NCBI RefSeq assembly: GCF_003334385.1
Contig: NZ_QOWN01000026.1
DNA length: 64,000 bases
DNA from: Escherichia coli
GTDB taxonomy: Bacteria; Pseudomonadota; Gammaproteobacteria; Enterobacterales; Enterobacteriaceae
Direction: 5' to 3' (one strand)
Part shown: positions 24,708 to 27,700 of the stretch, one piece after another
Layout of the letters: each line of letters begins with the position of its first letter
Position numbering within the stretch: position 1 is the first letter of the stretch
The notes under the pieces: generated by a model
Databases searched by the model: none
What the model was told of the DNA's origin: nothing
The model's input: only the letters and a program-made list of their open reading frames with translations
Made by a program: the position numbers and the translations under genes

Positions 24708-27700
24708 TCAGAACGACCAGTTCACACCAGCTACCGCGTTCCACGGGGATTCCACACCGGCACTATGGCTATACCCCACCCCAAGATGCCCGCTTAACGT
24801 ACTGCTGAATGAGGCTTTAATACCTGCCTGGTATATTCCACGTCTGCCCGACAAATAATTGACGAAATTACCGTCACTATTCACTTTCACCCGGTTATCA
24901 TCGACAAATTCTTTGCGCACAGCCGCCTTCAGCCACGGCTCAACTTCCATACCGTTCCCCAGACGCATGTTGTAACTCAGCGTTGCGCCCAGTTCACGAT
25001 ATATACTGCGGGTATCGACTGATTTCGATTTCATGCCATTGGATAAATGATATTCGGGGTTATCAGCGGTGAACCCCGTTAACGATGCATACGGCGTCAG
25101 GTTCCAGTTACCATCGGTAAATCGCATCCCGGTTTCAATGTGACCGCCCAGCCCGTTGCTGTGGTAACTGCCATTGGCGGCTCCACCGCTGCTCATTTTA
25201 CCTGCTACGTTACTTTTAAAACGGTTCAGCTTCACGACACCGTCCAGATAGAAACCACTTTCATGTTCCCAACTGGCATAGCCGCCCAGAGAATAACTGC
25301 CCACACTGCCATGTCCTCCGCGATCAAAACCGATATGTGAATGGGAATAGCCCATAAAAGCGCCTAGCGTGGTAATTCCTTCAGGAATATCATTACGGCT
25401 GTCGATCCCCACTGTCATTCCGGTCAGCGTCTGCTCAAACCCGGCACCCGCATCGGTGGTGACATTATTACGGGTGTTATACGTCGCCCCCCAGACATTA
25501 TTGTTGTGTGGACTCGCTTTCATTATGTTCAACCGCTCGCGAATACTGTTTAGCTCAGCATCAAATACCAACGGTAATGTTGCTGCCATATTGAGTACGG
25601 CTGCCGTAGAAGGCGTAATGCGTTTCTCCGGAACGGGTGTCGGCGTTGGATCGGGAGTAGGGTCTGGTTTTGGATTTGGGTCTGGCTTTGGATCGGGTTT
25701 TGGGTCTGGCTTTGGATTTGGGATGGGGTCCGGGTTGGGTTTGACATCATTGGTCAGGTTCCAGTTGCTGTTGCCGTCACTTTTCAGGACATACTCATAG
25801 GTCCCAAGATCAACGAAACCGCCGGTATTGCCCAGCGTAAACGAAGCATCCCCTCCCCCTGTTTTCACCAGCGTCATCGCGTCGTCAGACTGTGGGCTGA
25901 CGCCGGTATCCTGAACAAAGATTTTAAAATTACCAGTGGCGTTGTTGTTGACGACCAGTTGATCGCCCCGGGAGCCTGCAACGTTGGTATGCAGGTAGAA
26001 ATTACCGCTACCGGAAAGTTCATTGGTTGTCAGCGTATTGTAGATACCGTTAGTTGTGGCAGGCGCTGCTGTTTGTGCTGACAAATAAACATCACCGTCG
26101 TTGAGTAGCAAACTGTTTACTCTATATTCGCAGTTGCTGGTACCTGCACAGGAATTATTGCTGTTAAGCCAGACACTGCCCCGGCTGGCAGCCGTCAGGT
26201 CGGCAAGCGTGGTATCGACGCCATTTCCCAGAGTCAATGTCGCGCTATCGGTAATCCGGACCGCCCCTTCGAGTTTAACTGGCGTAACATTATCCCGTGG
26301 CGTCATTAACGACAGGCTTCCTGTCGCGCCACTGACCGATGCATCCGCCAGCGTACCTGCGTAGACGATTGCCGTACCGCCAGCGACCTGGAGATCTTCT
26401 GCCCGGGCCAGAGCCTGAAACTCATCTTTTGACCGCCCAAGGGTATATTGCCCGCCAGAGTTAACCTTTGTGGCGGAGTCCTGACCCAGGTTTTGCATTG
26501 CCCCACCCTTGCCAACCGTGGAGTCGCGAGCTTCGGTACCTGCTAATACCAATAAATTACCGCCATTTTCCAGCAACATATTGGTCGCTAAATTGCCGGA
26601 AATGGAAAAAGTACCGTACTGGTGAGTACCGCTGATTTCAATACCGTTAGCCGTGCTCGTCTGGAGAGCGGCACCGCTGTTCTGGACGATATCTGTCGCT
26701 TTGCCATTATCGTTGACTGTCAGCGTACCGCCTTCATTGATCTTTGTTTTTATTGCCTCTCCGTTAGCTGAAACTGTTTGTATTCCGCCGTCGTTAATTG
26801 TTGTCTCATTCGCCACACCCTCGACAATTTGTTCACCGCCGGTGAGCGTCGTGCCTGTCGCAGTGGCTTTTGTTTTGACGATCTCCCGTCCGCCCATATT
26901 GACCTGTGTTTTGTCAGAAGAGGTGTCTGACTCCACGGTTAACACGCCGCCATTTGCCAGCAGGATATTGTTCGCCGCACCCTGCTCGATGCTGAACGCG
27001 ACGCCATCCGCGCGTGTTCCTGTGACCCGCGTCGCCCTGGTGGTTGCAACCAAAGCGCCCTGGCTACTCTGCTGTATCCCCGTTGCGCTGCCTTTCTCCC
27101 GCACATCGAGTGTGCCGCCGTCATTAAGCACCGAGTTTTCAGCCAGACCGCCCTCATTAACTACCTGTGAACCCCCATTAATAATGGAACCTTCCGCTGT
27201 CCCGTTTGCCATAATTTGTTGTAGGCCAGAGACGATATCGGTATTGATTGCCTTACCATAATTCTGAACGGTTTGCGTGCCACCATTGATGTGTGTTTTC
27301 TCTGTTGACCCACCATCAACAATTTGTTCACCACTTTCGATATTTGCTTCAGTGGCTAAACCATATACCGTTTGCTTGCCACCTTTGATATTTGCTTTAT
27401 CAGAAGTGGCACTGGCATATATTGTTTGGGTGCCAGCACTATTGAGTACAGTGCCAACATCTTTTCCATAAACATCCATTTTGCCGTTGGCATTAATAAT
27501 CGTGTCAACTGCGCGGGAACCAGTGACGACTGTTAATGAGCCAGCATTTTCCAGCACTACATTTTTAGCTTCTGAATTCCTGATGTAGAAAGCATCACCA
27601 TAACTGTTGGTTCCTTCGATAAGTGTTCCGGAGGTCGTGGAAGCAATTAATGCGCCGCCGGATTGTTGCTCAACATGCTTAGCCTCACCACCGTCCTGAA

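What the first reader, a model, noticed from the sequence alone, without database searches (positions are those of the whole stretch)
25613..25745. Tandem repeat encoding the Pro-rich linker of YpjA, a likely length-variable tract
About 130 bp of reiterated GGGTCTGGNTTTGGAT-like units encode PNPDPIPNPKPDPKPDPKPDPNPKPDPTPDPTP between the passenger and the beta-barrel. Such repeats are prone to slipped-strand expansion or contraction, which would change linker length in frame.
Basis: seen in the sequence. Interest (0 to 1): 0.3.

Follow-up and report, generated by a model that had tools for sequence, protein, structure and literature searches.

The report
Proline-rich spacer repeat in ypjA adhesin
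This is a real but ordinary stretch of 19 "X-Pro" pairs forming a flexible spacer in the E. coli surface adhesin gene ypjA; its length differs slightly (36, 38 or 40 residues) between E. coli lineages but is stable within them, and in this strain the gene is already broken by a stop codon.

Summary
On the minus strand, window 25629-25742 encodes 19 consecutive X-Pro dipeptides (38 aa) of ypjA. They lie between the pertactin-type junction domain and the helix that plugs the 12-strand barrel. At DNA level it is a degenerate hexamer repeat: 56-71% self-identity at in-frame offsets, and one exact 19-nt repeat 24 nt apart.

The tract does vary in length among alleles. In about 2,500 complete E. coli genomes that carry the region, two evenly spaced samples give about 50% with 38 aa, 30% with 36 aa and 17% with 40 aa. 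Every indel I read is a whole 6- or 12-nt unit inside the tract, including a clean tandem GACCCA duplication on the K-12-type background.

The tract is not hypermutable. 1,282 records carry the K-12-type segment without any indel. All 12 records explicitly labelled O157:H7 in those samples share one length.

A paralogue at the minE-ymgJ locus has a near-perfect (Asn-Pro)15-38 array at the same position. There, 8 genomes with nearly identical flanks show 7 different lengths. Repeat purity therefore seems to set the rate.

In this window ypjA is a pseudogene (CAG to TAG at codon 232). Overall this is an ordinary member of a known kind (TibA proline-rich domain, pertactin R1/R2). Low interest.

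The parts
25629..25742 (-). X-Pro dipeptide tract (19 units, 38 aa: KPNPDPIPNPKPDPKPDPKPDPNPKPDPTPDPTPTPVP), a degenerate NNNCCN hexamer repeat
   Evidence: Translation and codon table. TRF arrays. The AlphaFold2 model has pLDDT below 50 and no secondary structure at residues 128-164 of the C-terminal 470 aa, which is window 25629-25739.
25699..25717 (-). Copy 1 of the longest exact direct repeat (ATCCAAAGCCAGACCCAAA on the coding strand)
Evidence: 19 nt, 24-nt offset.
25675..25693 (-). Copy 2 of the 19-nt exact direct repeat
25752..26120 (-). Pertactin-type junction (autochaperone) domain, the C-terminal end of the beta-helical passenger
   Evidence: Pfam PF03212, E = 1.2e-45, residues 430-552 of the 899-aa fragment. 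Beta strands with high pLDDT in the model. Matches P.69 pertactin 1dab.
25515..25613 (-). Predicted alpha-helix (residues 170-202 of the C-terminal 470 aa) that would run through the barrel pore; begins 5 aa after the tract
   Evidence: AlphaFold2 model. The segment ITPSTAAVLNMAA..PLVFDAEL..VRERL is conserved across the family.
24777..25496 (-). Autotransporter beta-barrel domain (12 predicted strands)
   Evidence: Pfam PF03797, E = 2.3e-46. Model strands 207-469. Matches the BrkA translocator 3qq2.
24708..29288 (-). ypjA (adhesin-like autotransporter YpjA/EhaD), 1526 codons; a pseudogene in this window
   Evidence: 99.9% identical to K-12 ypjA; 2 differences from strain SCU-104, whose copy RefSeq flags 'internal stop'.
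28593..28595 (-). Premature TAG at codon 232 (CAG, Gln, in K-12)
   Evidence: The exact 61-mer around it occurs in 1 of 2,318 matching records, SCU-104.

Best explanation
The tract encodes a proline-rich, unstructured or extended spacer at the cell-surface end of the YpjA autotransporter. It sits between the folded C-terminal cap of the beta-helical passenger and the alpha-helix that occupies the barrel pore. Its DNA is a degenerate tandem hexamer repeat (NNN-CCN). Over evolutionary time it gains or loses whole 6- or 12-nt units, most likely by replication slippage or unequal exchange between neighbouring near-identical units, and always in frame. This produces alleles of 36, 38 and 40 residues that are fixed within E. 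coli lineages. Mixed proline codons and alternating K/D/N codons keep the exact repeats short (19 nt at most), so the rate is low and the tract is not a contingency locus. The expected protein-level effect of one unit is about 0.6 nm in a spacer of at most about 12 nm, which is probably close to neutral. Shown here: the anatomy, the allele lengths, the unit-wise indels and the within-lineage stability. Inferred: the slippage mechanism, the extended conformation, the extracellular location and the spacer function.
For: Anatomy: Pfam Pertactin domain, then tract, then Autotransporter domain. The AlphaFold2 model has pLDDT below 50 exactly over the tract, followed by a 33-residue helix and a 12-strand barrel.
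Length classes: the 511-nt and 301-nt segments around the tract occur as 0, +6 and -6 nt in about 30, 10 and 18 of 60 evenly spaced records, out of 2,526.
Unit-wise indels: the indels lie inside the tract and are whole units. L001 equals the window allele plus a tandem GACCCA. The O157-type allele equals the 36-aa allele plus AACCCAAATCCC. K-12-type and 36-aa alleles differ by one hexamer.
Stability: 1,282 records are at least 99% identical over 301 nt, which excludes any indel, and only 33 fall in the 95-99% band. The GACCCA-duplication allele is in only 4-5 records. All 12 records explicitly labelled O157:H7 among the listed rows have the same length.
Purity predicts rate: the minE-ymgJ paralogue carries a near-perfect (AAYCCR)n array at the same position, with 15-38 units in 15 genomes. 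Eight genomes with 0-1 differences in 600 nt of flank have 7 different tract lengths.
Free length in the family: flanks are conserved while the linker ranges from 0 aa (YejO-type) to about 110 aa (an Erwinia homologue).
Precedents: TibA has a proline-rich domain between junction and barrel (PMC3835316). Pertactin's proline-rich R1/R2 vary in repeat number among alleles on a slow timescale (PMC8931430).
Against: No experiment here shows slippage; the indels could have arisen by recombination between alleles or with the paralogue. The census is a sample (two sets of 60 evenly spaced rows plus identity bands), not a full count. About 28 of the 33 K-12-like records in the 95-99% band were not inspected and could hide further length variants. 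The extended conformation and the spacer role are inferred from composition and a low-confidence model region, not measured. The narrow 36-40 aa range could reflect stabilising selection on length rather than low mutability; the data cannot separate the two.
Confidence: 0.8

Rival explanations
1. The tract is a hypermutable, contingency-type repeat that generates linker-length heterogeneity within populations on short timescales.
For: The sequence is repetitive, with a 19-nt exact repeat at a 24-nt offset. One recent single-unit duplication is seen on the K-12-type background. The paralogue's purer array at the same position really is hypervariable.
Against: 1,282 records share the K-12-type segment with no indel, and at most 33 K-12-like records could differ in length. 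The listed 100%-identical rows include K-12 laboratory derivatives such as MG1655, W3110-P, MC1061, HMS174 and NEB_Turbo. The records labelled O157:H7 all have one length. Units are degenerate, with 56-71% self-identity. All changes are multiples of 3, so no on/off switching is possible.
Confidence: 0.05
2. The length classes arise mainly by recombination or gene conversion, between ypjA alleles or with the minE-ymgJ paralogue, rather than by local slippage.
For: The last six hexamers (GACCCG ACTCCC GATCCA ACGCCG ACACCC GTTCCG) are identical in the 40-aa ypjA alleles L002, L027 and L029 and in most paralogue alleles (the 36-aa L003 differs by one base), and the flanks are 91-95% identical. A database fragment (P0012) combines the paralogue-type start NNV-NPNPNP with the ypjA-type KPDPTPDP. 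Length classes follow allele lineages.
Against: The L001 allele is identical to the window allele apart from one tandem GACCCA, and the 12-nt gain is a tandem copy of its neighbour. These are signatures of local duplication, not imported sequence. Recombination can spread length classes but does not create them.
Confidence: 0.12
3. The length and sequence variation is driven by immune selection on an exposed, immunodominant proline-rich epitope, as proposed for the pertactin repeat regions.
For: The position and composition are analogous to pertactin R2, and pertactin alleles differ in repeat number (PMC8931430). Amino-acid replacements occur within the tract (I/N, D/E, D/N, T/A).
Against: ypjA is absent from more than half of complete genomes and is often truncated, frameshifted, IS-disrupted or stopped, which argues for weak selection on the gene. 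No expression or antibody data were examined. The pertactin study found no antibodies against R1/R2.
Confidence: 0.03

Closest known systems
TibA proline-rich domain (ETEC self-associating autotransporter)
   Same: A roughly 50-residue proline-rich segment (residues 627-677) lies between the junction region and the membrane-embedded domain, the same position as in YpjA (PMC3835316). It belongs to the same AIDA-type group of autotransporters (PMC9289746). TibA-annotated homologues appear among the hits to the YpjA C-terminus (P0045, P0118).
   Different: The sequence and length of the tract differ. TibA's functional dissection (Cote and Mourez 2011) could not be read here, so no functional transfer is claimed.
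Pertactin repeat regions R1 (GGXXP) and R2 (PQP) of Bordetella
   Same: These are proline-rich, in-frame tandem repeats in an autotransporter passenger whose copy number differs among alleles and species, on a slow timescale. [quoted passage not shown] YpjA's preceding domain is a Pfam Pertactin domain.
   Different: The repeat units differ (X-Pro dipeptides versus GGXXP or PQP). Pertactin's passenger is cleaved from the barrel. No link to vaccine or immune pressure is known for YpjA.
TonB (Glu-Pro)n-(Lys-Pro)n spacer (from established knowledge, not tested here)
   Same: Alternating charged-residue/proline dipeptides are thought to form a rigid extended spacer; the composition resembles KPDPKPDP.
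   Different: It is an unrelated protein that spans the periplasm, not the cell surface. This is a resemblance only.
Periscope proteins (surface stalks of variable repeat number)
   Same: The concept is shared: a surface adhesin whose reach changes by gain or loss of tandem repeats, with variability correlated with DNA repeat identity (PMC9704523). The paralogue's (Asn-Pro)15-38 array behaves this way at DNA level.
   Different: The class is defined by highly identical repeats of independently folding domains that form rods. Here the unit is a dipeptide in a disordered linker, and in ypjA itself DNA identity and variability are both low.
Simple-sequence contingency loci (phase variation)
   Same: A short tandem DNA repeat inside a surface-protein gene.
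   Different: The units are multiples of 3 and degenerate, there is no frame switching, and no variation is seen among close relatives.

Membership tests
Classical (type Va) autotransporter, AIDA-I/pertactin type | C-terminal 12-strand beta-barrel with a preceding pore-spanning alpha-helix | tested here: met
   PF03797, E = 2.3e-46. The AlphaFold2 model has helix 170-202 and 12 strands, mean pLDDT 83.8. Matches the BrkA translocator 3qq2.
Classical (type Va) autotransporter, AIDA-I/pertactin type | Beta-helical passenger with AIDA repeats and a pertactin-type junction (autochaperone) domain | tested here: met
   PF16168 several times and PF03212, E = 1.2e-45. Matches pertactin 1dab.
Classical (type Va) autotransporter, AIDA-I/pertactin type | Intact reading frame from signal peptide to barrel | tested here: not met
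   TAG at codon 232 in this window. The K-12 copy is intact. So this copy is a pseudogene of a family member.
In-frame coding tandem repeat with allelic copy-number variation (pertactin R1/R2 type) | Tandem repeat with a unit that is a multiple of 3 nt, encoding a proline-rich peptide | tested here: met
   19 NNN-CCN hexamers; TRF arrays.
In-frame coding tandem repeat with allelic copy-number variation (pertactin R1/R2 type) | Alleles differ by whole repeat units | tested here: met
   36, 38 and 40 aa; the indels are one hexamer or one 12-mer, tandem to their template.
Contingency locus / hypermutable simple-sequence repeat | Homogeneous (near-perfect) repeat tract | tested here: not met
   Self-identity is 0.56-0.71 at in-frame offsets and the longest exact repeat is 19 nt.
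Contingency locus / hypermutable simple-sequence repeat | Repeat number differs among closely related isolates | tested here: not met
   1,282 records have no indel in the K-12-type segment. The records labelled O157:H7 are uniform. By contrast this feature is met by the minE-ymgJ paralogue.
Periscope proteins | Highly identical tandem repeats of an independently folding domain forming a rod | tested here: not met
   The unit is a dipeptide and the region is modelled without structure at pLDDT below 50. Definition taken from PMC9704523.
Polyproline-II rigid spacer (TonB-like) | Extended PPII conformation of X-Pro repeats | not testable with these tools
   The composition fits, but the AlphaFold2 region has low confidence. 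CD or NMR on the peptide would be needed.

The most novel reading that the evidence does not exclude
Linker length might act as a selected 'ruler' that matches the reach of the adhesin to the thickness of the surrounding surface layer (O-antigen, capsule, fimbriae). On this reading the near-perfect (Asn-Pro)15-38 array in the minE-ymgJ paralogue would be a disordered-linker analogue of Periscope proteins, tuning reach at population level. The degenerate ypjA tract would then be the same device 'frozen' by codon diversification. Nothing here excludes this: lengths follow lineage or serotype (40 aa in O157:H7, 38 aa in the K-12 type), and a review notes that pili or exopolymers can abolish interactions of self-associating autotransporters (PMC3796261).
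Probability: 0.1. Interest if true: 0.45.

Novelty: new member of a known kind. Interest (0 to 1): 0.15.

Why it matters
It matters little for this window. The tract is a routine proline-rich spacer in a known, weakly conserved adhesin gene that is already inactivated in this strain. The useful points are practical. (1) The tract gives a small in-frame length polymorphism (36, 38 or 40 aa) that marks ypjA allele lineages. (2) The contrast with the paralogue's pure (Asn-Pro)n array is a clean natural example of repeat purity, not position or protein context, setting the indel rate. (3) RefSeq labels two different loci 'YpjA/EhaD', which can mislead allele comparisons.

Tried and rejected
(1) The (Asn-Pro)31 allele of strain 6EVA first looked like a dramatic ypjA expansion. 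Context showed that it and 14 similar genes lie between minE and ymgJ, so they are a paralogue that PGAP also names YpjA/EhaD. I removed them from the ypjA census.

(2) A protein search with the C-terminal 470 aa returned fragments and paralogues but no full-length YpjA clusters. It was useful for the family-wide linker comparison but not for an allele census.

(3) The Pfam hit to Trypan_PARP is a compositional match to DP/EP repeats, not homology.

(4) The + strand ORF 25369-25800 is the antisense Gly-X reading of the tract and is treated as spurious.

(5) I tried to link the paralogue's repeat to the E. coli MLVA loci CVN014 and CVN016. The papers held give no primers or coordinates, so this is unresolved.

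(6) The TibA deletion study (PMC3088133) is not held, and a text search for it found only unrelated papers.

(7) Literature searches found no paper describing the YpjA linker or its polymorphism.

(8) The one-base-shorter segment in strain MB56 is a frameshift outside the tract.

(9) In strain F765 the truncation is an IS1203-associated deletion, not a repeat event.

Full report
**What is there**

The window is E. coli. The 4.9 kb around the finding is 99.9% identical to K-12 ypjA, and it differs at two bases from strain SCU-104. ypjA lies on the minus strand: ATG at 29288, stop at 24708, 1526 codons. Translation gives ...WNLTNDV-KPNPDPIPNPKPDPKPDPKPDPNPKPDPTPDPTPTPVP-EKRITPST....

The uninterrupted run is 19 X-Pro dipeptides, 38 aa and 114 nt, at window 25629-25742.

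The chance expectation is 0.11 matches, and 0 of 100 shuffles reach 3.
- Tandem Repeats Finder sees overlapping arrays of period 12, 18, 24 and 42 with 72-87% matches.
- Nineteen of the protein's 33 prolines are in the tract.
- At DNA level the repeat is degenerate, with 0.56-0.71 identity at in-frame offsets.
- It contains one exact 19-nt repeat 24 nt apart (25699-25717 and 25675-25693). That is longer than 97% of re-codings of the same peptide with the gene's own codon usage, which suggests a fairly recent internal duplication.

**Where it sits in the protein**

Pfam places a Pertactin (junction/autochaperone) domain ending 4 residues before the tract. An Autotransporter beta domain starts about 45 residues after it, and AIDA repeats lie upstream.

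An AlphaFold2 model of the C-terminal 470 aa was built on 25 homologues (mean pLDDT 83.8). It gives:

- beta strands for the passenger end;
- pLDDT below 50 and no secondary structure at residues 128-164, almost exactly the tract (residues 127-164);
- a 33-residue helix at 170-202;
- a 12-strand barrel at 207-469.

Solved relatives match the two flanking modules: pertactin 1dab for the junction and BrkA 3qq2 for the translocator. More precisely, the tract lies between the passenger's C-terminal cap and the pore helix. By analogy with solved autotransporters this puts it at the extracellular mouth of the barrel; that step is inference.

**Is it length-variable among ypjA alleles?**

Yes, modestly. 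A 511-nt and a 301-nt segment centred on the tract each match 2,526 records (2,525 of 5,426 complete genomes). In two sets of 60 rows taken at even steps down the ranking, the matched length is:

| Matched length | Rows of 60 | Tract |
|---|---|---|
| same as the window | 29-30 | 38 aa |
| +6 nt | 10 | 40 aa |
| -6 nt | 18 | 36 aa |

I fetched eleven ypjA representatives and read the tract codon by codon. Every length difference lies inside the tract and is a whole unit:

- L001 is the window allele plus a tandem GACCCA (Asp-Pro).
- The 40-aa allele of O157:H7 and relatives is the 36-aa allele plus a tandem AACCCA-AATCCC (Asn-Pro-Asn-Pro). All four non-K-12 40-aa alleles read share that same event.
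- The K-12-type 38-aa and the 36-aa alleles differ by one hexamer.

Database fragments add a differently composed 36-aa tract and a 20-aa one, and the closest 69-71%-identical relatives, annotated E. coli or Escherichia albertii, have 18, 30 and 32 aa.

**Is it hypermutable?**

No.

- With the 301-nt query, 1,282 records are at least 99% identical, which excludes any 6-nt indel. Only 33 fall in the 95-99% band.
- The GACCCA-duplication allele is in 4-5 records.
- All 12 records explicitly labelled O157:H7 among the listed rows have the same length.
- All changes are multiples of three, so no phase switching is possible.

**An informative natural control**

One apparent ypjA allele (strain 6EVA) had a 74-aa tract made of 31 Asn-Pro units. 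Context shows that this gene and 14 similar ones lie between minE and ymgJ. They are a 3.4-kb paralogue that PGAP also names YpjA/EhaD. From memory, K-12 carries only a remnant there (ycgI); I did not verify this.

The paralogue has a near-perfect (AAYCCR)n array at the homologous position, with perfect runs of up to 84 nt and 15-38 units in 15 genomes. Eight genomes with 0-1 differences in 600 nt of flank have seven different tract lengths, 198-264 nt. Position and protein context are the same, so the pure repeat is a true VNTR and the degenerate one is nearly frozen. This is the strongest indirect support for a slippage-type mechanism and for repeat purity setting the rate.

**How free is the linker?**

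Across 25 homologues the flanks (Y.L...G..W.L and ITPSTAAVLNMAA..PLVFDAEL..VRERL) are conserved. The segment between them ranges from 0 residues (YejO-type) to about 110 (an Erwinia protein), and is proline-rich whenever present. Composition also varies: K/D/N-Pro in ypjA, Asn-Pro in the paralogue, E/T-Pro elsewhere. This fits a spacer whose exact sequence and length matter little.

At the polyproline-II rise of 3.1 Å per residue (established knowledge), 38 residues span at most about 12 nm and one X-Pro unit about 0.6 nm (inference).

**State of the gene here**

The window has TAG where K-12 has CAG at codon 232 (window 28593-28595). RefSeq flags the SCU-104 copy 'internal stop', and the exact 61-mer around the stop is found in only that one record of 2,318.

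More broadly, the ypjA region is missing from more than half of complete genomes. Elsewhere it is sometimes frameshifted, 3'-truncated or IS-disrupted. Selection on ypjA looks weak, which favours a near-neutral reading of the small length differences.

**Comparison with known systems**

- TibA has 'an additional proline-rich domain' (residues 627-677) between the junction and the membrane domain (PMC3835316). This is the same architecture, in the same AIDA-type group that a recent classification assigns to YpjA (PMC9289746).
- Pertactin's proline-rich R1/R2 regions vary in repeat number among alleles on a slow timescale. R2 is disordered in the crystal and has been suggested to be a stalk (PMC8931430).
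- Periscope proteins share the idea of variable reach but are defined by folded, highly identical domain repeats (PMC9704523).
- YpjA itself is reported to contribute to adhesion and biofilm formation (Roux 2005, as cited in PMC3796261).

I found no paper describing the YpjA linker polymorphism, but it is an unsurprising instance of a known phenomenon.

**Verdict**

This is a new member of a known kind and of low interest. The hypervariable (Asn-Pro)n array in the paralogue, outside this window, is the more interesting by-product.

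Noticed in passing
window 28593-28595 (minus strand, codon 232 of ypjA): Premature TAG where K-12 has CAG, so ypjA is a pseudogene in this window. 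The exact 61-mer around it occurs in only 1 of 2,318 matching records (strain SCU-104, flagged 'internal stop' in RefSeq).
   Followed up: yes
not in the window; loci L006, L009-L021, L024 (minE-ymgJ locus of other E. coli genomes): A 3.4-kb paralogous autotransporter, also labelled YpjA/EhaD by PGAP, carries a near-perfect (AAYCCR)n = (Asn-Pro)15-38 array at the homologous linker position. Eight genomes with 0-1 flank differences have 7 different lengths. It is a genuine VNTR and may correspond to a published E. coli MLVA locus, which could not be verified.
   Followed up: partly
L008 (strain F765); breakpoints at window 25666 and 28615: An IS1203 copy replaces about 2.95 kb of ypjA. One deletion breakpoint falls inside the X-Pro tract.
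   Followed up: partly
window 25369-25800, + strand: A 143-codon ORF antisense to ypjA. Across the tract it reads as Gly-X repeats. It is most likely a by-product of the CCN-rich coding strand, not a gene.
   Followed up: no
ypjA locus across the 5,426 complete genomes: Only about 2,436-2,525 genomes carry most of ypjA. Others keep about 11% (the barrel end plus the upstream small ORF), which also matches the minE-ymgJ locus. Several copies are 3'-truncated or frameshifted (L002, L027, L007). The gene appears to be under weak selection.
   Followed up: partly
window 29216-29240 and 30228-30266: Two small tandem repeats reported by TRF: 12 nt x 2.1 copies near the 5' end of ypjA, and 15 nt x 2.6 copies in the next minus-strand ORF (30200-30991).
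   Followed up: no
L011 (LHM10-1) and L016 (VCSW5), paralogue tract: RefSeq flags both copies 'frameshifted'. In L011 extra A residues inside the (Asn-Pro)n array break the frame; in L016 the tract itself reads in frame, so its frameshift lies elsewhere. Whether these are real mutations or long-read homopolymer errors is unknown.
   Followed up: no
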